A stretch of 64,000 bases of DNA. It comes from an uncultured Actinomycetota bacterium (GTDB taxonomy: Bacteria > Actinomycetota > Actinomycetes > Streptosporangiales > Streptosporangiaceae). Each line of letters opens with the position of its first letter. The first letter of the stretch is position 1. The stretch spans positions 167,041-231,040 of the forward strand of contig CAVWBQ010000013.1 in the NCBI GenBank assembly GCA_963753225.1. The letters are read 5' to 3'. Both the position numbers and the translations under genes were made by a program. This document shows, piece after piece, positions 25,201 to 49,072 of the stretch. The notes under the pieces were generated by a model. The model was not told the origin of the DNA and ran no database searches. It saw only the letters and a list, made by a program, of their open reading frames with translations.

Positions 25201-25473
25201 CGCAAGAGCGACGGCCTGGACGTCACCGACCGGATCGCGCTGCTCTGGTCGGCTCTTGACCCTGCCGGCGCTGCCGGCGCTGCTGGCCCTGCGGGCGCTG
25301 CCGGCCGGGAACTGGCGGAGGCGCTGACCCGGCACGCCGCGCTGATCGCGGGCGAGGTACTGGCAGTGGAGTTCGGCCCGGCCGAGGCTGATGTGGCTGG
25401 GCTGGGGTCTGATGACGTGCGGGAACACGCGGACGAGGAACTGGGCCTGCGGTTCTGGCTCAGGCGGGTCTGA
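22245..25473 (+). pseudogene. ileS: isoleucine--tRNA ligase; reading frame broken by one extra nucleotide near 24579
   Basis: The 22245..24578 frame carries the class I motifs (PPTANGMPGAHHV, KMSKHLGN). The 24580..25473 frame continues ...WGVLRRAGAPESVHLASWP... Skipping C24579 gives a seamless FVTDYV-WGVLRR junction and a product of about 1075 aa. Confidence 0.9.
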
Positions 25474-25701
25474 ACCGCTCGGCTTGCTGCCGAAACTTGG
25501 CGCATGGGAACTGGCAGTATGGCGCCGCGCGGGCACAGAAACGCTTCAGCGACTCTGGCACCGCCCGTACCACGCTCATACTGCATGGTTGCCGCAACCA
25601 TGTCGCTAGGGGGGCGCGTCAGAAGATAACCCGTCGCGTCGGGATTTCTGGCGTGCTGATGCGGTAACCGCTGGGTCGATGGGCCGTTGGTCCGGTTAGA
25701 G

Positions 25702-26038
25702 AAATCATGAGCCACTGCGTGGCTCTGCCGCAGGTGATGGAAACTGGGTCCCTTGCCGCCGCGGGCGGGTGCGGGTGGTGACGGGCTGGGGTCTTTTGCG
25801 GTGTCCGGGCTGCGGGGCCGGGCGCGGAGGGTGCAGGCTCGTGGCGGCTGCCGCCGGTCGTGACCGTTCCAGCCTGGGCCGTTCGAGGCCGTGTTAGAGA
25901 CAGGTCCTGAGGGCTCCCTTGCCGGGTAACCCCCGCTGCTGCTACGTGCGCGCGTGTCAGTCTCCTGTACTGACGGGGGCCCTGGCCGGCGGCGCGCCTA
26001 TCCCAGTCAGATGATGCCGCTGCAGGAGGTGGACGCAG
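25702..26038 (+). ncRNA. candidate bridge/seek RNA in the IS110 5' non-coding leader
   Basis: A leader of about 340 nt lies upstream of the transposase. It contains words identical to the insertion junctions. gggccgtt (25876-83) plus gttagag (25893-99) match the left junction gggccgttggtccggttagag. cgtgtcag (25953-60) matches the right junction ccgtgtcag|ccggacc. It also has local hairpins such as gtcag...ctgac (25956-25974). Confidence 0.25.
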
Positions 26039-27352
26039 GTGAGAGTGCTGTATGAGCATGTCGCCGGGATCGACGTGCACAAGAACATGATCAAGGTCGC
26101 GATCCGGTCCCCGGGTGAGAAGCCGTGGACCCGCACGACCGAGATCCTGGAGTTCCGCACGTTTTACGGGGTGCTGCAGGAGATGGCCCGCCTGCTGCGC
26201 CGCCGCGGGGTGACGCACGTGGTGATGGAGGCGTCCGGGATCTATACCGACCCGGTGTATTACGCGCTCGCCGAGCAGGACTTCACCGAGGTCGCGGTGG
26301 TCAACCCGGCGCACGCCAGGGCGCTGAAGGGCCATAAGACCGACGCGGCGGACTGCCGGCGGCTGGCGGAACTGTTCGAGTGCGGGCTGCTGCGCGGCTC
26401 GTATATCCCGCCGGCGGAGCTGAGGGAGGTGCGGGACCTGACCCGGTACCGGATGAAGACGGTGCAGGCCCGCACCTCGGAGATCCAGCGGCTTGCCAAG
26501 GCGCTGGAGTCGGCCGGCATCAAGCTCGGCTCGGTTGCCAGCGACATTACCGGCAAGTCCGCCACGGCGATGATCGATTCGCTGATCGACGGTGAGCGCC
26601 GCGGTGCCGTGCTGGCGGACCTGGCCAAAGGCCGGATGCGGACCGCGGGCAAGCTGGCTGACCTGTCGATGGCCCTGACCGGCCGGTTCACCGGGCATCA
26701 CGCGCTGATGTGCCGGCTGCACCGGGACCGGATCGCCGGCCTGGACGCCGCCGTGGCTGACCTGGACGACCAGATCGCGGGCCGGGCCGGGCGCTGGCAG
26801 CGGGAACTGGACCTGCTCAAGACCATCCCCGCGTTCGGCAACGTGGTCGCGCAGGCGTGGCTGGCCGAGATCGGCCCGGCCCCGCACCGGCACTTCGCCA
26901 GCCACGAGAAGCTGGCCTCCTGGGTCACGCTCTGCCCGGGCAACAACATCAGCGCCCGCAAGCGCAAGCACGGCCGCACCGGCGACGCCGGCACCTACAT
27001 CAAGCCGGTGCTCATCCAGGCCGCCTGGAACGCCATCCGCACCAAAGGGCGGCTGCAGGCCCGCTACAGCCGGCTGGTCCGCCGGTTCGGCGGAGACAAG
27101 AACCCCGCCGCGAAGAAGAAGGCCATCACCGCGATCGCGCACACCCTGCTCAAGATCGCCTACCAGGTCCTCAAGAGCGGCACCCCCTACCAGGACCTGG
27201 GCGCGGACTTCTACACCCGCCGGGAATCACCCGACCAGCAGCGCGCCTACCTGGAACGACGGCTCCAGAAGCTCTATCCCGGCTGCGCCATCACCATCAC
27301 CATCAGCCCGCCGGAGGCCGTCTTAACATCCACCGCCAGCACCACACCCTGA
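26039..27352 (+). CDS. IS110-family transposase (DEDD/RuvC-like N-domain plus Tnp C-domain)
   Basis: 437 aa: AGIDVHKNMIKVAI...HVVMEASGIY...VAVVNPAHARALKGHKTDAADCRRLAE...LLKTIPAFGNVVAQAWLAEIGP...FASHEKLASWVTLCPGNNISA. Confidence 0.93.
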   Translation: MRVLYEHVAGIDVHKNMIKVAIRSPGEKPWTRTTEILEFRTFYGVLQEMARLLRRRGVTHVVMEASGIYTDPVYYALAEQDFTEVAVVNPAHARALKGHKTDAADCRRLAELFECGLLRGSYIPPAELREVRDLTRYRMKTVQARTSEIQRLAKALESAGIKLGSVASDITGKSATAMIDSLIDGERRGAVLADLAKGRMRTAGKLADLSMALTGRFTGHHALMCRLHRDRIAGLDAAVADLDDQIAGRAGRWQRELDLLKTIPAFGNVVAQAWLAEIGPAPHRHFASHEKLASWVTLCPGNNISARKRKHGRTGDAGTYIKPVLIQAAWNAIRTKGRLQARYSRLVRRFGGDKNPAAKKKAITAIAHTLLKIAYQVLKSGTPYQDLGADFYTRRESPDQQRAYLERRLQKLYPGCAITITISPPEAVLTSTASTTP

Positions 27353-27814
27353 TCCCCGCAGCACCGGAGCCGCCGCCGAACCGGCACCCCCGGCCCGCCC
27401 CCGCCGGACAAACCAGCGCGACCACGCAGCCCTCGCCACCGCCCGGGCCAGGGTTCGCTCCCGCACGCCCACCGGGACCCAGTTTCCGTGTCAGCCGGAC
27501 CAACGGCACATCGACCCAGAACCGCCCTGTGCCGCGGCCGCGGCTATCGCATCGCCGCTCGCACCCGAGCTCAGACCAGCGTGCTAATAACTGACGCGCA
27601 CTAGCTGCATGGACGAGGCAGCCATGCAGTATGAACGGGCGCGCCCGGCCCAACGGCGGAGGTATCAGCGGTCACTGGTGAGGCCCGGCAGCGTACGCGC
27701 ACCAGGATGTGGGGGCCAGAGCCCGCGCCGCGGCCCGCCATGATCAACGTGAACTCGCCGGCAGCGCAGCAATCGGGGATCTGGGATCAGCGCCGGAGCG
27801 GGTAGACACGCCTG

Positions 27815-38178: not shown

Positions 38179-38216
38179 ACGGGCTACCGCCGCCGGAACC
38201 CGCCCGGATAGGCTGA

Positions 38217-38732
38217 GTGATGGCCATCGCGGCGATGATCGCATGGGTCGTCACCGCCAGCATCGGGTTCTACATGCTGCGCACCTGGGTGACGCGCGGC
38301 GGCCTGCGGCGGCAGCGCTCCACCGGGGTCGGGGTCCCGCCGGCGGTGGTCTTCGGCCATGCCAGCGCCGCCCTTACCGGCCTGGCGATCTGGCTCGGCT
38401 TCGTCGACACGGGCCTGGACCTGCTCGCCTGGATCGGCGTCGCGGTGGTCACCGGCGCCATCGCCCTGGGCGTGTGCACGGTCACCTTGTGGACGCCCTA
38501 TCCGGTGGCCGTCCCCCCGGCCCCTCCGCCCCCTGAAGCCGTCGCCGGGGCACCCGCTCCCGCGGACGGGAGCACTATCACCGACGAGATGATCGCGAAA
38601 CTGCTGGCCAACCCGGTCCGGGCCTCGCGCAGGCCGCGGCTCAAGCTGGTCCCGCTCATCCCGGTGGCGCACGGCTTCGCCGCGCTGACCACGTTCATGC
38701 TCGCCGTGCTGGCCGCCATTAGCGCCCGATAG
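38217..38732 (+). CDS. integral membrane protein (4 predicted helices, Pro-rich loop)
   Basis: 171 aa: IAAMIAWVVTASIGFYML, VVFGHASAALTGLAIWLGFV, LLAWIGVAVVTGAIALGV, LIPVAHGFAALTTFMLAVLAAI. No family recognised. Confidence 0.55.
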   Translation: MMAIAAMIAWVVTASIGFYMLRTWVTRGGLRRQRSTGVGVPPAVVFGHASAALTGLAIWLGFVDTGLDLLAWIGVAVVTGAIALGVCTVTLWTPYPVAVPPAPPPPEAVAGAPAPADGSTITDEMIAKLLANPVRASRRPRLKLVPLIPVAHGFAALTTFMLAVLAAISAR

Positions 38733-38806
38733 GTAGGTTTTAATCCCATTCGTTCCCCGCCTACCCCGGTTGGGCCGTCGGCGCGCTCGTCAGGCAGTCT
38801 GGATCC

Positions 38807-39643
38807 ATGGCAGAAACGCTGACAATGATGGCCGTACACGCGCACCCCGACGACGAGGCGTCGAGCACGGGCGGCGTACTGGCGGCCTACTCGGCCCAGG
38901 GCATCCGGACCGTGGTCGTGACGTGCACCAACGGGGAGTTCGGGGACGCGACCGGCGGGGTCAAGCCCGGCCAGAATGGGCACGACGAGCAGGCCGTGGC
39001 TCAGCAGCGACTCGCTGAGCTGCGCGAATCCTGCGCGATCCTGGGCGTGACCAACCTGGAACTACTCGGCTACCACGATTCCGGCATGCCGGACTGGGAC
39101 TATAAGGACCGGCCGGACGCCTTCTGCAACATCCCTGAGGCGGACGTGGCGGCCCGGATCTCAGAGCTGATCGAGGTGTACCAGCCGCAGGTGCTGGTCA
39201 CGTACGACGATCAGGGGCCGTACCAGCATCCCGATCACGTGCATGCGAGCCGCTCGGCCCAGAAGGCGTTCGCCGCCAGCGGCAGCGTGGCCAAGCTCTA
39301 CCTCAGCGCGATGCGCGGCAGTGACTGGCGGAAGATCTGGGAGGCCCTGCGCGAACTCGGCGCCGACGTGCCCGACTTCGAGAACCCGGACGCGGAACGA
39401 CAGCGGCGGGGGCTCGAGTCCGAGCAGCGCATCACCACCACCGTCGACATCCGGCAGGTGCTCCCCCGCAAGCGCGAGGCCCTGTTCGCGCACGGCAGCC
39501 AGATCGGCGGCGAGTCGTGGTTCAGTAAGATCCCCCAGGACATCGCCGAGGCCACCTTCGGCCGCGAGAGCTTCATCCGGGTCAGTGACAGCACCGGCGC
39601 CCCGCTGCCAGAAGACGACCTGTTCGCGGGCCTGCGGCCATGA
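38807..39643 (+). CDS. PIG-L/LmbE-family deacetylase (MshB/Mca-like)
   Basis: 278 aa: LTMMAVHAHPDDEASSTGGVLA...VVVTCTNGE...LGYHDSGMP...VTYDDQGPYQHPDHV. Confidence 0.85.
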   Translation: MAETLTMMAVHAHPDDEASSTGGVLAAYSAQGIRTVVVTCTNGEFGDATGGVKPGQNGHDEQAVAQQRLAELRESCAILGVTNLELLGYHDSGMPDWDYKDRPDAFCNIPEADVAARISELIEVYQPQVLVTYDDQGPYQHPDHVHASRSAQKAFAASGSVAKLYLSAMRGSDWRKIWEALRELGADVPDFENPDAERQRRGLESEQRITTTVDIRQVLPRKREALFAHGSQIGGESWFSKIPQDIAEATFGRESFIRVSDSTGAPLPEDDLFAGLRP

Positions 39644-40533
39644 CCGCCGGGTCCTACGCCGACGCCGCGGGGCTGGTCGAGCGGTCCGCCGCCGCGTACG
39701 CGGCCGCCGTGCCGGTCACGCCGGAGGACGACGGCTTCTTCGGGCCAGGGAGCGTGACCTGGCGGGTCAGCACGGATCTGGCCGCACCGGTGGCGGGACT
39801 CCGGTCACTGCTCATCCAGGCGCTGCACCCGCTGGCAATGGCCGGAGTCGACCAGCACAGCGACTGGCGCACCGATCCGGTCGGCAGGCTCGCGGCCACC
39901 TCCGCCTACGAGGCCACGGTCACGTTCGGGGACCGGGCCGGCGCCGCCCGGGCTGCGCGGCAGGTACGGGCCATCCACGAGCACGTCCGCGGCGTGGACA
40001 CGGTGACCGGCCTGCCGTACGCGGCCGGCGACCCGGCGCTGCTGCTGTGGGTGCACGCCGCCCTGGTCGATTCGGGCCTGGCCGCGAGCACCCTGTTCGG
40101 CACGCCGCTGACCGCCGCGGACGCCGACGGCTACGTGGCCGAGATGACCATCGCGGCCGAACTGCTCGGGGTGCCGCACGAGATGATCCCGGACAGCGTG
40201 GCCGCCCTCGGCCGTTACTTCGCCGGGGTCCGGCCGGACCTGCGCCGCACGCCCGCGGCGGCGGAGTCGATGAGCTACCTGCTCGATCCGCCCGGGCTCG
40301 ACGAGGACATCGCCGAGCTGTGGCAGGACATCAGGGACGCCGCGCTGCTGGCGCTGCCTGACTGGGCCATCCAGATGTACGGATACGCCGAGCCGCCACC
40401 GCTGACGGCGGAACGGCGGACCGAGATCCGCCAGGCCCTGGGCGTGCTGGACGCGGTCTTCCTGGGCGAACCCGGCGTGCTGGAGGCCCGGCAGCGGATC
40501 ATCGCGCGGATGCGTTCGGCGGGCAGGAAGTGA
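39640..40533 (+). CDS. DUF2236 / MpaB-type oxygenase-family protein
   Basis: 297 aa: GPGSVTWRVSTDLAAPVAGLRSLLIQALHPLAMAGVDQHSDWRTDPVGRLAATSAYEATVTFG....A......VR.IHEHVRG. ATGA overlap with the preceding gene. Confidence 0.78.
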   Translation: MTAGSYADAAGLVERSAAAYAAAVPVTPEDDGFFGPGSVTWRVSTDLAAPVAGLRSLLIQALHPLAMAGVDQHSDWRTDPVGRLAATSAYEATVTFGDRAGAARAARQVRAIHEHVRGVDTVTGLPYAAGDPALLLWVHAALVDSGLAASTLFGTPLTAADADGYVAEMTIAAELLGVPHEMIPDSVAALGRYFAGVRPDLRRTPAAAESMSYLLDPPGLDEDIAELWQDIRDAALLALPDWAIQMYGYAEPPPLTAERRTEIRQALGVLDAVFLGEPGVLEARQRIIARMRSAGRK

Positions 40534-41987
40534 GGGCGAGGCGCCTGGCGATCGCCGCGGGGATAGGCGCCGTCTCGGTCGCCGCGCTGACGCTGCTGCG
40601 GGGCAGGCAGGCTAGGAAGCTTAGGTTCAAGCGGGGCATGGCGACGGTGCGGCTGGCGGTGCGCGGCGGCGCGCGCTACGCGACCAGCGCGCCCCGGCTG
40701 TTCGCCAGCGCGGGCGAGCACCGGGAGGCACTGCGCAACGACCTGGCCCTGCAGACCGCCGAGGACGTCGCCGCCACCCTGGGGACGATGAAGGGCGTGC
40801 TGATGAAGCTGGGCCAGATGGCCAGCTACGTCGGCGACGGCCTGTCCCCCGCCGCCCGGCGGACGCTGAGCCGGCTGCAGGACAGCGTGCCCCCGATGAG
40901 CCCGGAACTGGCCGCCCAGGTCATCACCGAGGAGCTGGGCCAGCCGCCGGACCGGGTCTTTGCCACCTGGGACCCCAACCCCATCGCGGCCGCCTCGATC
41001 GGGCAGGTGCACCGCGCGATCACCCAGGACGGCCGCGCCGTCGCGGTCAAGGTGCAATACCCGGGCATCGCCGAGACGATCGAGGCGGACCTGGGCAACG
41101 TCGCGCTGCTGCGCCGGATGCTCAAGATCACCGCGCCGATGCAGGACGTGGACGCGCTGCTGGCCGAGCTGCGGGAACGCGTCACCGAGGAACTCGACTA
41201 CCGGCGGGAGGCCCGGAACCAGCAGATGTTCGCGCGCTACTACGCCGGCCACCCCACCATTAGCGTGCCCGGCATCGTGCCCGAACTGTCCACCCGCCGG
41301 GTAGTGACCGGCGAGCTGGCCGACGGCGCGCGGTTCGCCGAGCTCGCCACCTGGTCGCAGGCCGAACGCGACCTGGCCGCCGAGACGATCTACCGCTTCG
41401 TGTTCCGCAGCCTGTACGGGGCGCACGCGTTCAACGGTGACCCGCACCCGGGGAACTACCTCTTCCACCCCGGCGGGCGGGTCACCTTCCTGGATTTCGG
41501 CCTGGTCAAGTACTTCACCGCCGATGAGCTCCAGCCTCTGGTCGCGATGGTCAAGCACCTGTGCGTGGACGGCGACCCGGAGGGCTTCCGCCGCGCGATG
41601 GAGGACGCGGGCTTCCTGATGCACGGCGCGCCGCTGCCCACGGACATGATCGTCGAGCACATGGCGGTGTTCTACAACACGGTCCGCGAGCGGGGCCCGC
41701 GGACCATGACCGGAGCCTACGCCTCGGCGGTGACCAGGCGCTTCTTCGACTTCCGCAGCCCGCTCGCGGCCTACGTGCAGATCCCCAGGTCATACGTGAT
41801 CCTGCAGCGGATCAACCTGGGCCTGTTCGCGCTCCTCGGCGAGCTGTCCGCGACCGCGGACTGGCGCTGCGTCGCCGAGGAGATCTGGCCGTTCGTCCAG
41901 GGGACACCGTGTACCCCGATGGGTGCCGCCGAGGCCGAGTGGCGTGCCACCAGGACCAGGGCGGGCGACCTCAGGCCGTTCGGCTAG
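40530..41987 (+). CDS. ABC1/AarF/UbiB-family atypical protein kinase
   Basis: 485 aa: LGTMKGVLMKLGQMAS....LSP.......LQD.VPPMS...PIAAASIGQVHRA....GR.VAVKVQYPGI...I.ADL...DPHPGNYLF. GTGA overlap with the preceding gene. Confidence 0.9.
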   Translation: MRARRLAIAAGIGAVSVAALTLLRGRQARKLRFKRGMATVRLAVRGGARYATSAPRLFASAGEHREALRNDLALQTAEDVAATLGTMKGVLMKLGQMASYVGDGLSPAARRTLSRLQDSVPPMSPELAAQVITEELGQPPDRVFATWDPNPIAAASIGQVHRAITQDGRAVAVKVQYPGIAETIEADLGNVALLRRMLKITAPMQDVDALLAELRERVTEELDYRREARNQQMFARYYAGHPTISVPGIVPELSTRRVVTGELADGARFAELATWSQAERDLAAETIYRFVFRSLYGAHAFNGDPHPGNYLFHPGGRVTFLDFGLVKYFTADELQPLVAMVKHLCVDGDPEGFRRAMEDAGFLMHGAPLPTDMIVEHMAVFYNTVRERGPRTMTGAYASAVTRRFFDFRSPLAAYVQIPRSYVILQRINLGLFALLGELSATADWRCVAEEIWPFVQGTPCTPMGAAEAEWRATRTRAGDLRPFG

Positions 41988-43423
41988 AAATTACCGAACT
42001 GCGGGAACAGGTTGAACGGCCGCAGGTACCTGGTCGGTGAGAAGCTGATGAAGGCCGGATCGGTCGGGACGATCTTGCCGCCCGAGGAGAAGATGTTGAG
42101 CTGCGGGCCGAGCGCCGCGGCCTGGGCGTTCATCGCGGCCGGGCTGGGCACATGCCACCGCCCGGTGGCCAGGCGGTTCTCCAGCGTCTGGACCGCGGCG
42201 ACGGTCTCGGCCGGGGTAAACGCGCAGTGCCCGGCGCGGTGCACGAAGACCTGGCGGAGCAGGCTGGCGCGGCCGGCCCGGTCGACGGCGCTGCGGTACG
42301 CCTGCTCGTTCTCCGGCACCACCAGCCCGTCGCCCGTGGTGTGCATCGTGAGCACCGGGACCGAGATGCTGCCATTGAAGGCGATGTTCTTGATCAGGTA
42401 GGCCTCGGCGTTCGGGTTGGCCTTGACCCGCGGCGAGTTGTTCAGCGTCAGCAGGTCCTTGGTCAGGCTGAGCCCGGCCGCCTGGTAGAGCGCCACGACC
42501 TCCTTGAAGTCGGCGGACTTGGCCAGGTCGGCGAAGTAGTTCACGCCGGTGTTCCAGGACGGGTTGCCGCCGGCCCGGCCCTCGAGTTCGGCGCGGAAGG
42601 CGAAGACGAACGGGAAGGTCACCTGCGATCCCCACAGGAACTGGTTCGCTTCCTGGGCGGCGTAGTCGGTGGCGGCGGGTTCGGGCGACAGCGGGGTGAA
42701 CCAGCCGGGGGTGTCGCCCAGCGCCGAGACCAGTGCGAGGCGGGCCCGGCCCTGCGCGTTCTGCTGGGCCGAGGCCCCCGCGGTCTCGGCAGCCTGCAGG
42801 TTGGCCGTGGGGTTGGTGATGTTGACGACCTGGACCGCGGGGTCGATCAGCTTCTGGAACGCGAACTCCGCGTCGAGCGCGGTGTTCCAGGTGGCCACGC
42901 CGCCGGACAGCACGCCACACATGGGCAGCGCGGCGTCGAACCGCTTCGGGTAGTCCTGCAGCAGCCCGGCGGTGATGATGCCACCCAGCGAGTGCCCCCA
43001 GGCGACCGTCGTCTTGGGCTGGCCGTAGAGGCTGCCGAAGGCGTCCAGCGTGTTGATCTGGTCGGGCAGTGCCTGCGCGATGGCCCAGCCGGTGCTGGCG
43101 TAGGACGAGCCCGCGAGCGCGTAGCCGTGGCCGAGCATCCAGGCCGCGGTGGCCGGGTCGCCGACGTCCTGGGCCGGGTTGCTGCTGCCTGGCGTGACGT
43201 AGCCGTGGCTGTAGAGGTACAGCGTTCCGTTCCAGGCGCCGGGCGGGCACTGGAGCAGGTACGTCGCGCCGTCGCCCAGCTTCCCGTTGACCGTGGTCAC
43301 CGCGCCGGAACCGCCGCAGGTTGACGACGAGGCGGACGCCGCGCCTGCCGTGATCGCGGTAAGTCCGCCGATGGCCAGCCCGGCGGTAAGCACCAACCCG
43401 GCAATTTTCTTCGACCGCACCAT
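41984..43423 (-). CDS. secreted alpha/beta-hydrolase-fold protein
   Basis: Signal peptide is MVRSKKIAGLVLTAGLAIGGLTAITAGAASA. The nucleophile elbow is WGHSLGG. ATG 43423 is preferred over the track start at 43501. Its stop shares the tetranucleotide ctag (41984-87) with the convergent kinase gene. Confidence 0.72.
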   Translation of the reverse strand: MVRSKKIAGLVLTAGLAIGGLTAITAGAASASSSTCGGSGAVTTVNGKLGDGATYLLQCPPGAWNGTLYLYSHGYVTPGSSNPAQDVGDPATAAWMLGHGYALAGSSYASTGWAIAQALPDQINTLDAFGSLYGQPKTTVAWGHSLGGIITAGLLQDYPKRFDAALPMCGVLSGGVATWNTALDAEFAFQKLIDPAVQVVNITNPTANLQAAETAGASAQQNAQGRARLALVSALGDTPGWFTPLSPEPAATDYAAQEANQFLWGSQVTFPFVFAFRAELEGRAGGNPSWNTGVNYFADLAKSADFKEVVALYQAAGLSLTKDLLTLNNSPRVKANPNAEAYLIKNIAFNGSISVPVLTMHTTGDGLVVPENEQAYRSAVDRAGRASLLRQVFVHRAGHCAFTPAETVAAVQTLENRLATGRWHVPSPAAMNAQAAALGPQLNIFSSGGKIVPTDPAFISFSPTRYLRPFNLFPQFGNF

Positions 43424-43567
43424 CAACCCCACGCTCCCCAGCGCAGCTGACCCTGGACGAAAGTAACTTACCGGCAGGTCAGGCGAACGGGTAGATGTCA
43501 CCCCGGATTGGCTGAAACTACACGGAAACTACGCTGAATCGCGTCCTTGACGACGGGGGCGCCCCCT

Positions 43568-44317
43568 TTACGACCCGGCCGGTATGCGGTATACAGCCCG
43601 CAGCTCCGCGGCCTGGCCGGCGGGCAGTCGGCGCACGGCTTCGGTGAAGGTCACGCCGGACATCTGAGCCAGGTGGCTCCGCGTCCACGCGGCGACGTAG
43701 GCCGGGTCTTTCTTCGCCGTCTCGCGCAGTACCCAGCCGATCGCCTTCCTGATGAAGAACTCCTTCTCGGCCAGCATCGGCGTAGCGTACCGCTCGAACC
43801 GCTCGCGGTCGAGCCCGCCCCGCCTGACCCCGGGCAGCAGCGTGAGCAGGGCCGACCGGCGGACCCAGAAGTCCTCGTCGGTCGCCCACTCATCGATCAG
43901 CGGCCAGGCCGCCGGGTGCAGTAGCGCGACCGGGCCCGCGATGTCCCCGGCGAGCGGGTCCACGTAGGCCCAGCTGTGCGCCTGACGCACCCACGCCTCC
44001 ACCAGGGCCAGGTCGGCGGGCCGCAGGCCCCGCACGTGACGGCGCAGGACCTCGATGGCCGCGGTCCGCCGCTCGTGCACGGGCTCGCGCCACAGCGCAC
44101 GGGCCCAGGCCAGCGCTTCGTCCCGGCCGAGGCCGCGAAGAGAGCGGTCGGCCTCGACGACGGCGGCCCGGATGCCAGGCACGCCGACGCCGAGGAAAGC
44201 CAGGTCGCTCTTGAGGTATCTCTTCGCCTGCCCGGCCCGTTCCGGGTCGGCCAGCGGGCGCAGAGCCGCCATCACCGTGCTCGCGGCCGCTTCCGCGTCG
44301 AAGGCCGCACTGGTCAC
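43568..44317 (-). CDS. DNA alkylation repair protein (AlkD-like HEAT-repeat family)
   Basis: ...AKRYLKSDLAFLGVGVPGIRAAV...WREPVHERR.AAIE.L...EDFWVRRSALLTLL...EKEFFIRKAIGWVLRE. The start is uncertain: GTG 44317 is favoured, and the track ORF runs to 44467. Confidence 0.75.
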   Translation of the reverse strand: MTSAAFDAEAAASTVMAALRPLADPERAGQAKRYLKSDLAFLGVGVPGIRAAVVEADRSLRGLGRDEALAWARALWREPVHERRTAAIEVLRRHVRGLRPADLALVEAWVRQAHSWAYVDPLAGDIAGPVALLHPAAWPLIDEWATDEDFWVRRSALLTLLPGVRRGGLDRERFERYATPMLAEKEFFIRKAIGWVLRETAKKDPAYVAAWTRSHLAQMSGVTFTEAVRRLPAGQAAELRAVYRIPAGS

Positions 44318-44405
44318 CGGCACACGGTACCGCGGGCGTGCTTCGACCGGCGTCGCAACGTTTCGCCGCGAGAATGTGTTATCTGAGCTGAGGGAGGTTC
44401 GGTCC

Positions 44406-45023
44406 ATGCCACGGCAGAACCGGGTGACGCCGCACGGGGAACTGCTCGCCGTGCCCGATCGCGGCATGTTCTGGGGTAACCGCGGCCCGCTGCTGGACCA
44501 CGCGGGCCGGCTGGCCCGCTACTCCCGCGGGCAGGCCTGGGCCATCTGCGTGCTCTCGTTCAAGGGGCGGCGCCGACAGCAGTGGAGGCCGGGGCGGCTG
44601 ACCGAGTTGTACTTCCTCGACGAGGCCACCGGGCTGGCCGCCGGGCACCGGCCCTGCGGGGAATGCCGTTACCGGGAGTACCAGGCGTTCAAGCGGGCCT
44701 GGGCGGACGCCGCCGGCGGCGGCTCGGCCGGCGCCCCGGAGATCGACGAGCGACTGCACGCCGACCGGCTGGCCGGGCCCGGCGTGCGGCGCACCTACCG
44801 GGCGCCGCTGGCCGGGCTCCCTTCCGGGACCATAGTGAACCTCGGCGGAGCGCCCTGGCTGGTGCACGACGGACGGCTGCTGGCCTGGACGCCAGGCGGT
44901 TACCGGCAGCGCCCGGTCGAGGTGCTCGCCGGCCCGGTGACGGTGATCACCCCGCGGGCCACCGTGGCCGTGCTGGCGGCGGGGTACCAGCCGGTGCTTC
45001 ACCCGAGCGCGCTAGCCGCCTAG
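44406..45023 (+). CDS. conserved hypothetical protein
   Basis: 205 aa from MPRQNRVTPHGELLAVPDRGMFWGNRGPLLD... with a CGECRYREY motif. The upstream part of the 322-aa track ORF overlaps the divergent gene and looks like shadow. Confidence 0.5.
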   Translation: MPRQNRVTPHGELLAVPDRGMFWGNRGPLLDHAGRLARYSRGQAWAICVLSFKGRRRQQWRPGRLTELYFLDEATGLAAGHRPCGECRYREYQAFKRAWADAAGGGSAGAPEIDERLHADRLAGPGVRRTYRAPLAGLPSGTIVNLGGAPWLVHDGRLLAWTPGGYRQRPVEVLAGPVTVITPRATVAVLAAGYQPVLHPSALAA

Positions 45024-45044
45024 CCGCCTAGCCGCCTAGCCGCC
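45013..45044. repeat. 8-bp tandem repeat x4 (tagccgcc) spanning the stop codon of 44406..45023
   Basis: Four perfect, contiguous copies. Because 8 is not a multiple of 3, the TAGs fall in all three frames. Confidence 0.9.
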
Positions 45045-45059
45045 GGGAGCCTGGCCTGG

Positions 45060-45857
45060 TCATACTCGCAGGACCAGCCCGTCGTGTGCCGTCTCGCAGC
45101 AGGCCTGCTCCTGGCGCCCGAGCATGTCGGCGGACATGTGGGTCAGCACCGTGCGCCGGGCGGTGAGCTCGTCCCGGCGGGCGGCGAGATCCGCGTGCCG
45201 CAGGTGATGCGGCACGGCCTTGTCCCAGTAGTACGCCTCGGCGATGAGCAGGTCCGCGCCGGCCGCGGCCGCGGCGATCGCGGGCGTCCAGGCGGTGTCG
45301 CCCGTATAGGCGATGATCCTGTCGCCGAGGGTCAGCCGCAGGATCAGGGCCGGGGCGCCGCTGGGGTGGCTGGCCTGGAAGGCCTGCGCCCGCACCCCGG
45401 CCGCCACGGTGGCGGAACCGCCCGGGCGCAGCTCAGTCACCTCGACCGCGAACCGGCGCCGTACCCGGGAGGAGCCGGGGAACATGCACTCCATCGCCTC
45501 GGCGAGCCGCTGGCCGGTGCCGGCCGGGCCGGCCACGACCAGGGGCGCGGTGCGCCCGGCGAACTGAGCGTCGAGGATCAGGAACGGCAGCCCGCCGAAA
45601 TGGTCTCCGTGCAGGTGCGAGACGAACACGGCGGCGATCCCGCCCGGGTCAAGGCCGCACCGCCGCAGCGCGGGCAGCGACGTCGCGCCGCAGTCCAGCA
45701 GCACCGGGGCGACCCCAGCGACCCCGGCGGGCCCGGCCGGCCCGGCCGGCCCGGCCGACTGCAGGTGGATGCAGGCCTGGAAGCGGCCCCCGCTGCCGAA
45801 CGCGTCGCCGGAGCCGGCGAAGGTCACCGTGACCCCGGCCGGGTCCGGGCTAGCCAC
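45060..45857 (-). CDS. MBL-fold metallo-hydrolase
   Basis: VTVTFAGSGDAFGSGGR...LLDCG...VFVSHLHGDHFGGLP (HxHxDH)...YTGDT...THM. GTG 45857 overlaps the MarR 3' end by 8 nt. Confidence 0.82.
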   Translation of the reverse strand: MASPDPAGVTVTFAGSGDAFGSGGRFQACIHLQSAGPAGPAGPAGVAGVAPVLLDCGATSLPALRRCGLDPGGIAAVFVSHLHGDHFGGLPFLILDAQFAGRTAPLVVAGPAGTGQRLAEAMECMFPGSSRVRRRFAVEVTELRPGGSATVAAGVRAQAFQASHPSGAPALILRLTLGDRIIAYTGDTAWTPAIAAAAAGADLLIAEAYYWDKAVPHHLRHADLAARRDELTARRTVLTHMSADMLGRQEQACCETAHDGLVLRV

Positions 45858-46326
45858 CGAACCAGCCGGGGACGTCGAGCCGGAACGTCTCGCCCGGCAC
45901 CATGGTCCGCAGCCCGGCTTCCAGCCCGGCCAGGCGGTCGGCGCCCAGCGTGCCTGCCCACCGTGACCGGATGTCATCGAAGATCATCGCGGACAAGGCG
46001 AGAACTTCGACGCCACGCGGGGTGAGGCGGGCCAGCCTGCGCCGCCGGTCGGCGTCATCGCCGGCGCGCTGCACGTAGCCGAGTTCCTCGAGCCGGTCGA
46101 TGGTCTTGCCCGCCGCCTGCTTGGAGATTCCGAGACGGCGGCCCGTCTCGGTGGCGGTGGCCCCGCCCGGGCCTATCGCCTGCAGCGCGAAGCCGTGCGC
46201 CGGGCGCACATCGGGATGGCCGCGGCGGGCCAGTTCGGCGTGCAGCTCGTCGATGATCGACCGGAACCCTCCGAACAGCAGCAGCGGCAGCTCGAAGCCG
46301 TAGGTGTCATTTGACATGATGGACAA
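45850..46326 (-). CDS. MarR-family transcriptional regulator
   Basis: 158 aa: FALQAIGPGGATATETGRRLGISKQAAGKTIDRLEELGYVQRAGDDADRRRRLARLTPRG. Confidence 0.9.
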   Translation of the reverse strand: MSIMSNDTYGFELPLLLFGGFRSIIDELHAELARRGHPDVRPAHGFALQAIGPGGATATETGRRLGISKQAAGKTIDRLEELGYVQRAGDDADRRRRLARLTPRGVEVLALSAMIFDDIRSRWAGTLGADRLAGLEAGLRTMVPGETFRLDVPGWFGG

Positions 46327-46341
46327 CCTTGTTTACTGTTT

Positions 46342-46360
46342 TAGACAACCTAGTTGTCTA
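46342..46360. promoter_or_regulatory. perfect 8-bp inverted repeat tagacaac-cta-gttgtcta; candidate operator of the adjacent MarR
   Basis: It lies in the 52-bp divergent intergenic region between the MarR gene (start 46326) and the CMD-GNAT gene (start 46379). A further gacaac half-site lies at 46322-27. Confidence 0.5.
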
Positions 46361-46378
46361 CCTTACCGGAGATAGACC

Positions 46379-47602
46379 ATGTCTGCTGACGTCATGCCCG
46401 GCTCCTCCTTCACCGAGCACGGTGTCTCTACCGGGCACAGTGTCCCTACCGGGCACAGTGTCTCTACCGGGCACAGCGCCTTCACCGAGCACAGCATCGA
46501 GTCCGCGCCGCCGGCCGCCCGCCGGTTCATGTCCGCGACCAGGAACCACCTGGGCTACCTCCCGGCGGCCATGGCCCGGATGGCGGCGTCGCCGGAGCTC
46601 ATGGACGGTTTCCTGAAGCTCACCGCGATCTTCGAGAACACTTCGCTCGAGCCTGTGGCGCGCGAGGTGCTGGTCATGACGGTAGCCACGAGGAACCGCT
46701 GTCACATCTGCGTGGCCATGCACACGGCCAGGCTCACCGCTCTCGGCGCCGACCCCGGGCTCATCGCGGCGCTGCGCGACCCGGACCGCGCCGAGCCGCT
46801 CCCGGACGAGCGCCTCAACGCGGTCCGCGTGTTCACCGTGCGGGTCCTCGACACCGCGGGCGACGTCGGCGACCGGGCGCTGCGCGACTTCCTGGCCGCC
46901 GGCTACACGACCCAGAATGCGCTCGAGGTCGTGCTCGGCGTCGGCACCTACACGATGTCCACCCTGGCCAACCGGCTCACCGGCGCGCCCGTGGACGACC
47001 AGTTGGCCGCATACGCCTGGGCGTTATCGTGCAGCATGACGCAAAACGATGGTGACGCGCGGGTGACGCTGCGCCCGCTGGGACCGGGCGACCAGGACGA
47101 GTTCGTCACGCGGGCGCGGGCCAGCGTGAAACTGCACCATCCGTGGTACTCCATGCCCACGACACCCAAGGAGTTCCGGACCTACCTGGCCAAGTTCAGC
47201 CAGCCGACCGCCGAGGGGTTCCTGGTCTGCCTGCGCGACGGCGGCACGCTGGCCGGCATGGTCACCATCGACTCGATCATCCGGGGACGCTACCAGTCCG
47301 CCAGCTTGAGCTACGCGGCGTTCGCGGCCGGGGCCGGGCGGGGCTACATGTCCGAGGGGGTGGCCCTGGTGCTGCGGTACGCGTTCAGCGAGTTGCGGCT
47401 GCACCGGCTCGAGGCCAGCATCCAGCCGGCCAACCAGGCCTCGCTGCGACTGGTCGGCCGGCTGGCTTTCCGCAAGGAGGGCTACTCACCCGCCATGCTG
47501 TTCATCGACGGCGCCTGGCGAGACCATGAGCGGTGGGCCATCACCCGCGAGATGACAGATTTCCCTCCGGTCGACCCGCACCCCACCCTCCCCACCCGCT
47601 GA
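46379..47602 (+). CDS. carboxymuconolactone-decarboxylase (AhpD-like) domain fused in frame to a RimJ/RimL-type GNAT acetyltransferase domain
   Basis: CMD part: REVLVMTVATRNRCHICVAMHTARL. GNAT part from MTQNDGDARVTLRPLGPGD...GRGYMSEGVALVLRYAFSELRLHRLEASIQPAN.AS..L. There is no stop between them. Alternative starts are ATG 46529 (CMD) and ATG 47036 (GNAT). Confidence 0.72.
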   Translation: MSADVMPGSSFTEHGVSTGHSVPTGHSVSTGHSAFTEHSIESAPPAARRFMSATRNHLGYLPAAMARMAASPELMDGFLKLTAIFENTSLEPVAREVLVMTVATRNRCHICVAMHTARLTALGADPGLIAALRDPDRAEPLPDERLNAVRVFTVRVLDTAGDVGDRALRDFLAAGYTTQNALEVVLGVGTYTMSTLANRLTGAPVDDQLAAYAWALSCSMTQNDGDARVTLRPLGPGDQDEFVTRARASVKLHHPWYSMPTTPKEFRTYLAKFSQPTAEGFLVCLRDGGTLAGMVTIDSIIRGRYQSASLSYAAFAAGAGRGYMSEGVALVLRYAFSELRLHRLEASIQPANQASLRLVGRLAFRKEGYSPAMLFIDGAWRDHERWAITREMTDFPPVDPHPTLPTR

Positions 47603-47612
47603 GGATGACTTC

Positions 47613-47920
47613 AACCGCCATGATGTGACATCGTGACGGTTAGCTTAGGTAAGCTTAGCTAACTGCGCGTCAGTTATTAACACGCGGGTTTGATCTCGGG
47701 TGCGAGCGGGCGGGCGGTAGCCGCGGCGGCGGTGCGGGGCGGCGGTAGCCGCGGCGGTACGGGGCGGCGGTTCTGGGTCGAAGTGCCGGTGGTCCGGTTC
47801 TAGCCGGACCAACGGCCCATCGACCCAGCGGCTACCACATCAGCGCGCCAGAAATCCCGAAGCGACGGGTTATTTTAAGACGCGCGCTTATAACCGCAAC
47901 GATGTGACATCGTGGCGGTT
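47613..47920. repeat. copy B (uninterrupted) of the long-palindrome repeat element
   Basis: Terminal near-palindromic hairpins: aaccgccatgatgt-g-acatcgtgacggtt (47613-41) and aaccgcaacgatgt-g-acatcgtggcggtt (47892-920). The two arms are imperfectly complementary to each other around the apex ggtccgg-ttctag-ccggacc (47791-47810). The left arm carries an internal tandem duplication of about 26 bp (about 47712-47764). Confidence 0.85.
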
Positions 47921-48001
47921 GCGGAGGTGCGGCGGGAGTGGCTCGTGTAAACGGAAGAGGTGCGAGTGGCAGGGGGCGCGCGGGAGGATGCAAGAAGGCG
48001 G

Positions 48002-48043
48002 CTGGGGTCAGCCGACGTAGAACTGGGGTCAGCCGACGTAGAA
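48002..48043. repeat. perfect 21-bp tandem duplication spanning the mraY stop codon
   Basis: ctggggtcagccgacgtagaa occurs at 48002-48022 and again at 48023-48043. In the mraY sense this reads TTCTACGTCGGCTGAccccag x2, the last four codons plus the stop plus 6 nt. Confidence 0.95.
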
Positions 48044-49072
48044 GATGCCGAGGCCCAGGGCCACGCAGATGCCGGCGATGATCCAGAAGCGGACCACGAC
48101 GGTGGTCTCGGCCCACCCGGCCAGCTCGAAGTGGTGCTGCAGCGGGGCCATCCGGAACACCCGCTTGCCGGTCAGCTTGAACGACCCCACCTGGATCACC
48201 ACCGACAGGGTGATGAGCACGAACAGGCCGCCGAGCAGGAGGAGCAGCAGCTCGGTCTTGGTGGTGATGGCCAGCCCGGCGAGCGCGCCGCCGAGGGCCA
48301 GCGCCCCGGTATCGCCCATGAAGATCTTGGCGGGCGGCGCGTTCCACCACAGGAAGCCGGTGCAGGCGCCCATCACGGTGGCGGCCACGATGGCCAGGTC
48401 CTGCGGGTCGCGAACGGCGTAGCACGCCGGGGCGAGGAACACCGTGCAGTCGTTCCGCAGCTGCCAGATCCCGATGATCATGTAGGCGGCGAGCGCCAGG
48501 ATGGCCGCGCCGGTGGCCAGGCCGTCCAGTCCGTCGGTGAGGTTCACGCCGTTGGAGGTCCCGGCCACCATGAAAATGACCCAGACCACGAAGAGCACCG
48601 GCCCGATGGAGATGCCGAAGTCGGCGTAGAAGGACAGGTGGGTGGATGCCGGGGTGAGATCGTATCCGTCCGGGAACCTGATCGCGAGCAGGGCGAACAC
48701 CCCGCCCACCACGGCCTGCCCGGCCAGCTTAGCCCCGCTGCGCAGGCCCAGGCTGCGCTGCATGTACAGCTTGATGAAGTCGTCCGCGAAACCGACCAGG
48801 CCCAGGCCGGTCATCAGGAACAGCACGAGCAGCCCGGACGCGGACATGGCGTTGCCGGTGACCACGTGGCCGATCAGGTAGCCGGTCAGCGACGCGATGA
48901 TGATCACCGTGCCGCCCATGGTCGGAGTGCCCCGCTTGGACAGGTGCCCGGCCGGGCCGTCGGACCTGATCTCCTGGCCGTAGCCGCGCCTGCTGAACGT
49001 CTTGATCGCCAGGGGGGTGCCGAACAGCGCGATGAACAACGACACGGCGGCGGACAACAGGACGGTCTTCAC
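48029..49072 (-). CDS. mraY: phospho-N-acetylmuramoyl-pentapeptide transferase
   Basis: 347 aa: ...KRGTPTMGG...GFADDFIKL...[13 protein letters not shown]...[12 protein letters not shown]...RMAPLHHHFEL-like ([12 protein letters not shown]). GTG 49072 overlaps the murF stop (GTGA). Confidence 0.96.

What the first reader, a model, noticed from the sequence alone, without database searches (positions are those of the whole stretch)
47613..47920. Undescribed long-palindrome repeat element (about 300 bp) present in two copies, one at the dcw break
Copy B (47613-47920) consists of two terminal near-palindromic hairpins that share gatgtgacatcgtg. Between them are two arms that are imperfect reverse complements of each other. 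The arms meet at the apex ggtccgg-ttctag-ccggacc. Copy A (25577-27633) is in the opposite orientation. Its arm 25614-25695 matches the reverse complement of 47804-47888 with 7 mismatches over about 82 nt by my manual alignment. Its arm 27495-27600 matches the reverse complement of 47664-47797, apart from a tandem duplication of about 26 bp that is present only in copy B. Both copies are intergenic and sit just downstream of genes: ileS for copy A, and the CMD-GNAT and mraY genes for copy B. The architecture fits a MITE/REP-like element or a structured RNA gene. It is not explained by any annotated feature.
Basis: seen in the sequence. Interest (0 to 1): 0.65.

Follow-up and report, generated by a model that had tools for sequence, protein, structure and literature searches.

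The report
Palindromic repeat targeted by an insertion sequence
The 300-base palindrome is a real, repeated piece of intergenic "junk-like" DNA of a soil actinomycete. Its hairpin tip is the landing site of an RNA-guided jumping gene that has split the second copy in two, so this is a new example of a known kind of element rather than a new kind of biology.

Summary
Copy B (47613-47920) is a three-hairpin palindrome. Copy A has the same ~210-nt core (88% identical) in the opposite orientation.

1. Copy A is one element cut at its apex loop by a 1,795-bp IS110-family insertion sequence (25700-27494).
2. A third copy, cut at the same nucleotide by the same IS, lies at an unrelated locus in a near-identical metagenome organism.
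3. The ~52-nt apex hairpin is a repeat family found at many loci in Streptosporangiaceae MAGs and soil metagenomes.

Evidence on what it is:
- The element is absent from the orthologous GNAT|mraY site of relatives.
- The IS carries a 7-nt guide (GTTAGAG, 25893-25899) identical to its own left flank plus the AG core. In four sister IS lineages this segment changes to match their different flanks.
- There is no Rfam hit, no target-site duplication and no compensatory change in the hairpin.

Best reading: a REP/ERIC/MITE-like non-autonomous palindromic repeat that serves as a safe-harbour target for a bridge-RNA-guided IS110 element. It may also act as a stem-loop between convergent genes. Copy number in the genome and the mobilising enzyme remain unknown. 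This is a new member of a known kind, of moderate interest.

The parts
47613..47641 (.). Copy B, terminal hairpin T1 (AACCGCCATGATGTGACATCGTGACGGTT). It is a 29-nt palindrome and forms a 31-nt inverted repeat with T2.
   Evidence: D3, I1. The same hairpin occurs independently in L064, L071, L098 and L053.
47639..47663 (.). Copy B-specific AT-rich mini-palindrome (GTTAGCTTAGGTAAGCTTAGCTAAC). It is absent from copies A and C.
   Evidence: I7, I8; alignment.
47664..47772 (.). Copy B, long arm. It starts with GCGCGTCAG and an AT-rich box (TTATTAAC) and contains a G+C-rich 28-nt tandem duplication (47706-47733 / 47734-47761).
   Evidence: D4.
47773..47828 (.). Copy B, apex hairpin: 25-nt arms around the loop TTCTAG (47798-47803). 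It belongs to a ~52-nt hairpin family found in Streptosporangiaceae MAGs and soil metagenomes.
   Evidence: I2.
47829..47891 (.). Copy B, short arm. It has a local hairpin CCCG-AAGCGA-CGGG, an AT-rich box and ends in GACGCGCGC.
47892..47920 (.). Copy B, terminal hairpin T2 (AACCGCAACGATGTGACATCGTGGCGGTT).
   Evidence: D3, I6.
25577..25699 (.). Copy A, left half. Terminal inverted repeat CATACTGCATGG with a local hairpin (25577-25610), then the arm 25613-25695 ending in GGTCCGG, then TTAG of the loop.
25700..27494 (+). IS110-family insertion sequence, 1,795 bp, AG-AAATCATG...CCGTGTC-AG, with an AG core at both junctions. It is inserted in the apex loop of copy A.
   Evidence: A 99.9%-identical copy in L053 splits a third palindrome copy at the same nucleotide.
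25893..25899 (+). Predicted left-target guide of the IS-encoded bridge RNA (GTTAGAG). It equals the left flank GTTAG plus the AG core.
   Evidence: The segment changes to match the flank in 4 further IS lineages.
25954..25960 (+). Predicted donor guide (GTGTCAG). It equals the right IS end GTGTC plus the AG core and is invariant in all IS lineages compared.
26039..27352 (+). IS110-family recombinase gene (437 aa; DEDD_Tnp_IS110 plus Transposase_20 domains).
   Evidence: The window-encoded protein is listed. Distant match to the IS621 and ISCro4 recombinase structures.
27495..27633 (.). Copy A, right half. The arm starts with CCGGACCAACGGCACATCGACCCAG. It is followed by the AT-rich box, GACGCGC, and the terminal hairpin/inverted repeat ending in CCATGCAGTATG.

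Best explanation
The feature is a composite, non-autonomous palindromic intergenic repeat, REP/ERIC/MITE-like. The host is probably a Streptosporangiaceae-type actinomycete.

Anatomy:
- A ~210-250-nt core bounded by GCGCGTCA...TGACGCGC.
- At the centre of the core, a 23-25-bp hairpin with a 6-nt loop.
- The core is framed by two short terminal hairpins that are inverted repeats of each other.

Behaviour:
- Copies sit in the 'safe' gaps between convergent genes. They drift in sequence and pick up internal duplications.
- They are present or absent between relatives, as expected of selfish or near-neutral repeat DNA.
- The apex loop is the programmed target of a bridge-RNA-guided IS110-family insertion sequence. 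[quoted passage not shown] Recombination at the AG core placed the 1,795-bp IS in the loop of copy A, and in the loop of a third copy elsewhere.
- Copy B has loop TTCTAG instead of TTAGAG, a 5/7 match to the guide, and is unoccupied.

Shown: repeat status, anatomy, insertion polymorphism, IS identity and junctions, and guide-flank covariation.

Inferred: that the repeat is or was mobile, by an enzyme not identified. That in transcripts it acts only as a stem-loop (3' end protection or U-tract-less termination) between convergent genes. That the loop difference is why B is empty.
For: - Three copies with unrelated flanks, 86-91% identical over the core. The two IS copies inside them are 99.9% identical, so the insertions were recent and independent, into old, diverged repeat copies.
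- Apex hairpin family: found at at least 7 right-flank and 12 left-flank contexts in MAGs and metagenomes.
- The terminal hairpin T also occurs on its own.
- Orthologous GNAT|mraY site: 11 nt in L096 and an unrelated 183 nt in L093-L095, against 426 nt with the element in the window.
- The ileS-side site of a relative with identical DivIVA (L102) holds only weak collinear remnants, which suggests no strong purifying selection.
- IS: Pfam DEDD_Tnp_IS110 plus Transposase_20, homology to the IS621 and ISCro4 recombinases, and AG at both junctions.
- Guide covariation at one aligned position of the 5' non-coding end: GTTAGAG / CCGATAG / ACTTAAG / AAAAGAG match flanks GGTTAG|AG, CCCGAT|AG, CACTTA|AG and CCAAAAG|AG. 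The fifth lineage (P0020-type, L101) carries the same AAAAGAG guide and has one mismatch to its own flank.
- Fold z-scores of -7.0 and -7.6.
- All three full copies lie between convergent genes.
Against: - Only three full-length copies were seen. The source genome could not be scanned, so 'repeat family' status for the whole 300-nt unit rests on few copies.
- No transposase that could move the repeat was found, and there is no target-site duplication.
- Outside this lineage only the ~52-nt apex and the T hairpin recur, not the long arms.
- The right-target guide of the bridge RNA could not be located.
- The intact loop TTAGAG is inferred from the junctions and was not observed in an unoccupied copy.
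- The left arm of the apex is almost invariant across loci and taxa. That could mean a sequence-specific function rather than recent spread.
- One window-type IS copy (L054) has a non-palindromic right flank.
Confidence: 0.7

Rival explanations
1. The element is a functional, selected RNA element. It would be a bidirectional, U-tract-less terminator or insulator, or an mRNA 3'-end stabiliser, placed between convergent genes and kept for its structure. The IS merely exploits it.
For: All three full copies lie between convergent genes. Very stable folds on both strands. Copy A's termini differ in sequence from B's and C's, yet are still inverted repeats of each other. REP targets of ISPpu10 act as terminators.
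Against: No terminator-like site with a T run. No Rfam family. No compensatory pairs and several pair-breaking changes among 17 apex copies. Relatives manage with 11 nt at the same site. Two of three copies are split by 1.8 kb. Other apex copies lie between co-directional genes.
Confidence: 0.15
2. The apex (inverted arms around a 6-nt spacer, GGTCCGG-TTCTAG-CCGGACC) is a site-specific recombination site of a dif/att/attC kind. Exchange at it shuffles flanking DNA, and the IS110 element is only one of its users.
For: Among metagenome contigs one right flank (R4) is joined to four different left flanks. One left flank (L6) is joined to two different right arms and flanks, with the switch inside the hairpin. 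The arm-spacer-arm geometry resembles tyrosine-recombinase core sites (own knowledge).
Against: No recombinase other than the IS110 enzyme is linked to the sites seen. At least one flank switch lies 47 nt outside the hairpin (L057 versus L059). Short-read metagenome contigs can be chimeric at repeats. Homologous recombination between IS copies followed by excision would give the same pattern.
Confidence: 0.08
3. The palindrome arms are the long terminal inverted repeats of the IS itself, and copy B is a deletion derivative (a MITE) of that IS.
For: Two of three copies carry the IS exactly between the arms.
Against: The IS copies are 99.9% identical, but the arms around them are only 86% identical. 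Sister IS lineages (84-94% identical) end at the same nucleotides and have completely different flanks. The IS-encoded guide matches the flank as a target. Copy B keeps no IS-derived sequence between the arms.
Confidence: 0.04
4. The two window copies are a chance resemblance or a simple segmental duplication.
For: Only two copies lie in the window.
Against: The arm motif occurs 4 times against 0.01 expected. There is a third copy at an unrelated locus. The flanks are unrelated and the window copies are in opposite orientation. A related hairpin family occurs in other genomes.
Confidence: 0.01

Closest known systems
REP sequences as targets of IS110-family bridge recombinases (IS621 in E. coli; ISPpu9 and ISPpu10 in Pseudomonas putida)
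   Same: An intergenic, repeated, hairpin-forming sequence is the specific insertion site. The IS has no terminal inverted repeats and carries a 2-nt core at both junctions. A guide in the IS non-coding end has the sequence of the left target plus the core. The target hairpin lies in 'safe' intergenic DNA, often between convergent genes (PMC11208160; ISPpu10 preprint; PMC12288879 abstract).
   Different: The host is a high-G+C actinomycete. The core is AG, not CT. Insertion is in the apex loop of a 23-25-bp hairpin that sits inside a ~300-nt composite palindrome, much larger than a ~35-nt REP. No RAYT gene or GTAG-type REP signature was seen. The right-target guide was not resolved.
ERIC/IRU elements of enterobacteria (127-nt imperfect palindromes; own knowledge)
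   Same: A long imperfect palindrome in intergenic regions next to gene 3' ends, with size variants caused by internal insertions, no coding capacity and no known transposase.
   Different: No sequence similarity. The element here is about twice as long, has distinct terminal hairpins, and its apex is an IS110 target. Copy number is unknown.
MITEs such as Correia elements of Neisseria (own knowledge; general description in PMC3184786, abstract)
   Same: A size of 100-400 nt, terminal inverted repeats (about 30 nt here), hairpin-forming, present or absent between relatives.
   Different: No target-site duplication at any of the three copies, and no parent IS with the same ends was found. The ends differ between copies (T hairpins in B and C, another hairpin pair in A).
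Palindrome-associated transposable elements of IS200/IS605, and REPIN/RAYT systems (own knowledge)
   Same: Sub-terminal hairpins at both ends, no terminal-repeat/duplication signature, and short hairpins (T) that also occur alone or as adjacent doublets.
   Different: No Y1/HUH transposase was detected in the window ORFs scanned. A conserved cleavage tetranucleotide was not identified.

Membership tests
IS110-family insertion sequence with bridge RNA (applies to 25700-27494, the insert in copy A) | [quoted passage not shown] | tested here: met
   E = 4e-20 and 6e-16, both above the gathering scores; matches to the IS621 and ISCro4 structures, E about 1e-7.
IS110-family insertion sequence with bridge RNA (applies to 25700-27494, the insert in copy A) | No terminal inverted repeats, and a short core sequence present at both junctions | tested here: met
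   every copy in 5 lineages starts with AG-AA(A/T)(T/A)CAT and ends with GTGTC-AG.
IS110-family insertion sequence with bridge RNA (applies to 25700-27494, the insert in copy A) | A non-coding end encodes an RNA whose target-binding loop covaries with the insertion site (left target guide = top-strand sequence of the left target plus core) | tested here: met
   7/7 matches in four lineages with three other guides, 6/7 in a fifth. Rule taken from PMC11208160.
IS110-family insertion sequence with bridge RNA (applies to 25700-27494, the insert in copy A) | A right target guide complementary to the core plus the right target | tested here: inconclusive
   only 3-nt-plus-core matches, not consistent across lineages.
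REP / REPIN | A short (about 20-40 nt) imperfect palindrome, often in inverted pairs, in extragenic DNA | tested here: inconclusive
   The T hairpin (29 nt, also found as an adjacent doublet in L064) and the 52-nt apex fit. The whole unit of 262-308 nt is far larger.
REP / REPIN | Tens to hundreds of copies per genome | not testable with these tools
   The source genome is not searchable. There are 2 copies in 64 kb, a third in a near-identical organism, and 16 apex loci in JGI metagenomes.
REP / REPIN | An associated RAYT (Y1/HUH) transposase gene flanked by the repeats | not tested
   No such domain appeared among the roughly 40 window ORFs scanned. The rest of the genome is unknown.
MITE | Terminal inverted repeats | tested here: met
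   B: 31 nt, 87% complementary (I1). A: about 34 nt, 27/34 by eye, with outer 12 nt exact. C: T hairpins at both ends.
MITE | A target-site duplication flanking each copy | tested here: not met
   No direct repeat abuts the ends of A, B or C (sequences). Comparison with the empty site L096 gives no simple duplication.
MITE | An autonomous parent IS with the same ends | tested here: not met
   No element with T-hairpin ends and a transposase was found in 648 kb of fetched loci. The only IS associated with the element has unrelated ends.
Structured non-coding RNA gene or cis-regulatory RNA | A match to a curated RNA family | tested here: not met
   Rfam 15: no hit at gathering score in the window. 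Only chance-level hits at E >= 0.4.
Structured non-coding RNA gene or cis-regulatory RNA | Compensatory base changes that maintain helices | tested here: not met
   0 compensatory pairs among 17 distinct apex hairpins, and pairs 5 and 12-14 are often broken; the only 'compensatory' columns come from copy A's different terminal repeats.
Intrinsic (Rho-independent) terminator | A G+C-rich hairpin followed by a T/U run | tested here: not met
   no terminator-like site in 47300-48200 on either strand.

The most novel reading that the evidence does not exclude
The apex hairpins may form a genome-wide network of recombination sites rather than passive repeats. Bridge-RNA-guided IS110 recombinases, whose guides are retuned among close IS lineages to the loops of different palindrome families, would use them as landing pads. 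They would also exchange the DNA on either side of the loop. That would produce the shuffled left and right flanks seen around identical hairpins in soil actinomycete contigs. On this reading the 300-nt composite is a host- or IS-maintained 'docking module', not decaying junk.
Probability: 0.1. Interest if true: 0.7.

Novelty: new member of a known kind. Interest (0 to 1): 0.35.

Why it matters
- Genome structure: it explains an odd 2-kb 'palindrome' next to the cell-division gene cluster as a small repeat split by an insertion sequence. It also shows the repeat did not cause the break in that cluster.
- Actinomycete genomics: it defines a so far unnamed family of palindromic intergenic repeats in Streptosporangiaceae-type soil bacteria. 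The parts are a ~52-nt apex hairpin, a 29-nt T hairpin and a ~300-nt composite. These repeats will confuse assembly, annotation and sRNA or terminator prediction.
- Bridge recombinases: it offers a natural series of close IS relatives, 84-94% identical. Their 5 variable guide bases have been retuned to different targets, two of which are the loops of different palindromic repeats. One occupied/unoccupied pair of targets differs by two loop bases. That is a ready-made test set for target rules in high-G+C hosts.

Tried and rejected
- The genome-contig scan used a 20-nt degenerate arm motif.
- Look-ups of the window's own transposase and of three near-identical ones (P0001, P0002, P0004, P0005) returned nothing on record. 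The source genome's other IS and repeat copies could therefore not be seen.
- Plasmid collection: no match to the element, and only distant (65-68%) IS110 genes.
- Viral contigs: no apex or T hairpin.
- Rfam at permissive E-values: only chance hits to microRNA and lncRNA models.
- Attempts to locate the right-target guide by complementarity and by consensus folding of the IS 5' end gave only 3-nt matches and were left unresolved.
- Target-site duplications were looked for at all three copies, and by comparison with an empty site. None was found.
- Literature searches for a described actinobacterial REP/RAYT or palindromic IS110 target found nothing specific.
- Rejected ideas: segmental duplication; the arms as part of the IS; LexA, HAIR or CIRCE-type operator (no resemblance, own knowledge); a tRNA- or riboswitch-derived element (no Rfam hit).

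Full report
1. THE OBSERVATION

Copy B is as described.
- Two 29-nt terminal palindromes (47613-47641 and 47892-47920) are 90% identical to each other and contain GATGTGACATCGTG (D3, I1, I6).
- They frame two unequal arms that meet at a 25-bp hairpin with the loop TTCTAG (47773-47828, I2).
- A 28-nt G+C-rich tandem duplication (47706-47761) lengthens one arm (D4).
- The whole 324-nt stretch folds much better than shuffled controls on both strands (z = -7.0 and -7.6).

The match to copy A is confirmed.
- A 25613-25699 aligns with the reverse complement of B with 7 arm mismatches.
- A 27495-27606 aligns except for gaps totalling 28 nt that fall at the duplication.
- The 20-nt arm motif occurs four times in the window against 0.01 expected.

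2. WHAT COPY A REALLY IS

The 1.8 kb between the two halves of copy A is a 1,795-bp insertion sequence (25700-27494).
- It encodes a 437-aa protein with the DEDD_Tnp_IS110 and Transposase_20 domains.
- The protein is distantly related to the solved IS621 and ISCro4 bridge recombinases.
- The junctions read GGTCCGGTTAG|AG-AAATCATG ... CCGTGTC-AG|CCGGACC.
- The IS therefore sits in the apex loop. Removing it, and keeping one AG, restores a hairpin with the loop TTAGAG.
- Copy A without the IS is about 262 nt.
- Its terminal hairpins differ in sequence from B's, but are again inverted repeats of each other.

3. MORE COPIES

An ENA soil metagenome (ERZ25039538) holds an organism with a 99.9%-identical IS.
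- There (L053) the IS lies between a D-Ala-D-Ala-ligase-like gene and leuD, again convergent genes.
- It splits a third copy (C) of the palindrome at the same nucleotide. Copy C has B-type T hairpins.
- Over the ~210-nt core the three copies are 86-91% identical, while the IS copies are 99.9% identical.
- So these were recent, independent insertions into old, diverged repeat copies. The arms are not part of the IS.

Parts of the element recur more widely.
- The ~52-nt apex hairpin (GGGTCGATGTGCCGTTGGTCCGG-TTCTAG-CCGGACCAACGGCACATCGACCC and a variant right arm) recurs in four Streptosporangiaceae MAG loci.
- It also recurs in 16 JGI soil-metagenome loci. These have at least 12 different left flanks and 7 right flanks, next to ordinary housekeeping genes.
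- The T hairpin also occurs alone: as an adjacent doublet in L064, singly in L071, and beside another IS copy in L098.
- The long arms were found only in A, B and C.
- The 300-nt unit is therefore a lineage-specific composite of more widely spread hairpin modules.

4. PRESENCE AND ABSENCE IN RELATIVES

- At the orthologous GNAT|mraY junction, one relative (L096) has 11 nt between the two stop codons.
- Three others (L093-L095) have an unrelated 183-nt insert with a different hairpin.
- The window has 426 nt there, including copy B.
- The same GNAT/MarR/metallo-beta-lactamase island abuts mraY in those relatives. The dcw break is therefore ancestral and was not caused by the element.
- At the ileS site, a relative with 100% identical DivIVA (L102) has a 452-nt spacer. 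It shows only weak, collinear remnants of copy A (E = 0.005-0.02) and has no IS.
- This suggests, tentatively, an old copy decaying without strong constraint.

5. WHY THE IS IS THERE

I aligned the IS 5' non-coding ends from five lineages that are 84-94% identical in DNA. One short segment changes between them. In each lineage it equals that lineage's own left flank plus the AG core.

| IS lineage | Guide segment | Left flank and core |
|---|---|---|
| Window type | GTTAGAG | GGTTAG / AG |
| P0031 type | CCGATAG | CCCGAT / AG |
| P0071 type | ACTTAAG | CACTTA / AG |
| P0011 type | AAAAGAG | CCAAAAG / AG |
| P0020 type | AAAAGAG | CCAATAG / AG (one mismatch) |

- With five variable bases matching in four independent guide/target pairs, chance is negligible (own estimate, about 10^-12).
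- This is the published rule for the left target guide of IS110 bridge RNAs (PMC11208160).
- An invariant GTGTCAG 60 nt downstream equals the right IS end plus the core, as expected for the donor guide.
- The P0031-type IS sits in the loop of a different palindromic repeat (GGGGTGAAGGGGCCCTTACCCCC...). Targeting hairpin loops is therefore a habit of this IS clade. It parallels IS621, ISPpu9 and ISPpu10 in REP sequences.
- Copy B's loop (TTCTAG) matches the guide at only 5 of 7 positions. This plausibly explains why it is empty (inference).
- I could not identify the right target guide.

6. WHAT THE PALINDROME IS NOT

- It is not a known RNA family.
- It has no sigma-70-like promoter and no hairpin-plus-T-run terminator.
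- Among 17 distinct apex hairpins the left arm is nearly invariant and the right arm falls into two subfamilies. There are no compensatory changes, and several changes break pairs. Conservation therefore reflects shared origin or sequence recognition, not selection for an RNA helix.
- It has terminal inverted repeats but no target-site duplication, and no parent IS was found. It is not a classical MITE.
- No Y1/HUH transposase was seen among about 40 window ORFs.

7. VERDICT

- Best explanation (confidence about 0.7): a REP/ERIC/MITE-like composite palindromic repeat that is tolerated between convergent genes. Its apex loop is the programmed target of a bridge-RNA-guided IS110 element.
- Any role as a stem-loop at transcript 3' ends is inferred only.
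- Rivals, with confidence: a selected terminator or insulator RNA (0.15); a general recombination site that shuffles flanks (0.08); the arms as IS ends (0.04); chance or duplication (0.01).
- The element is unnamed, as far as my literature searches show. In kind, though, it is a new member of a known class.
- The main unknowns are its copy number in the source genome and the enzyme that spreads it.

Noticed in passing
window 22245-24644 and 24586-25473 (+): ileS is split into two overlapping ORFs in different frames: tRNA-synt_1 plus Anticodon_1, then Anticodon_1 plus DUF5915. In the relative L102 it is a single 1,077-aa gene. This is either a frameshift (pseudogene) or a sequencing indel.
   Followed up: partly
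window 48002-48022 and 48023-48043: A perfect 21-nt tandem duplication (CTGGGGTCAGCCGACGTAGAA) covers the last codons and the stop of mraY. Relatives L093-L095 carry other partial repeats of the same GACGTAG motif there. The spacer downstream of mraY is a hotspot for slippage or insertion.
   Followed up: partly
window about 38200-47602: A ~9-kb island lies between mraY and ftsW, where murD is expected. It holds PIG-L, MpaB-like, ABC1 kinase, peptidase S9, DNA-alkylation repair, metallo-beta-lactamase, MarR-like and CMD-GNAT genes. No murD was seen in the window. The mraY-proximal part of the island (peptidase S9 to GNAT) is also present in relative L096, so that part of the split is ancestral.
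   Followed up: partly
L083-L092 (JGI soil metagenomes), IS junctions: A sister IS (88.7% identical) always sits in the loop of a different palindromic repeat, GGGGTGAAGGGGCCCTTACCCCC-GAT|IS|GCGGGGGTAAGGGCCCCTTCACCCC. Further copies of that repeat lie nearby. This is a second REP-like family with its own retuned guide (CCGATAG).
   Followed up: partly
L057-L059, L063, L064, L067, L071 and others (apex hairpin loci): Identical hairpins join different combinations of left and right flanks. Right-flank class R4 has four different left flanks. Left-flank class L6 has two different right arms and flanks, with the switch inside the hairpin. This is either recombination at the hairpin or assembly chimeras.
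   Followed up: partly
L064 1145-1202: Two T hairpins lie back to back, separated only by CCTG, with no central palindrome between them. It looks like an 'empty' version of the window's composite, or a REPIN-like doublet.
   Followed up: no
L054 1-1795 and right flank: A 99.8%-identical copy of the window-type IS has the right flank CACGTCAAC..., not the palindrome arm. That flank resembles the CGTCAAC right flanks of the P0071-type IS. The contig starts at the IS end, so this is either off-target insertion or an assembly join.
   Followed up: no
L077/L078 (one contig) and L090: Two P0071-type IS copies lie in tandem, 42 nt apart. In L090 the last 12 nt of the IS right end (TTTCCGTGTCAG) are duplicated in tandem.
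   Followed up: no
L099 and L098, flanks of the P0011-type IS: This IS (93.9% identical, guide AAAAGAG) is inserted between an apex-arm-like sequence (CCAACGGCACATCGACCC) and T-type hairpins. The same hairpin modules therefore cluster around other IS targets in relatives.
   Followed up: no
L002 about 500-585 and L050 (same locus, two MAGs): The outer half of the apex left arm plus a G+C-rich spacer is tandemly duplicated (period about 36 nt). This parallels the 28-nt duplication in the window's copy B.
   Followed up: no
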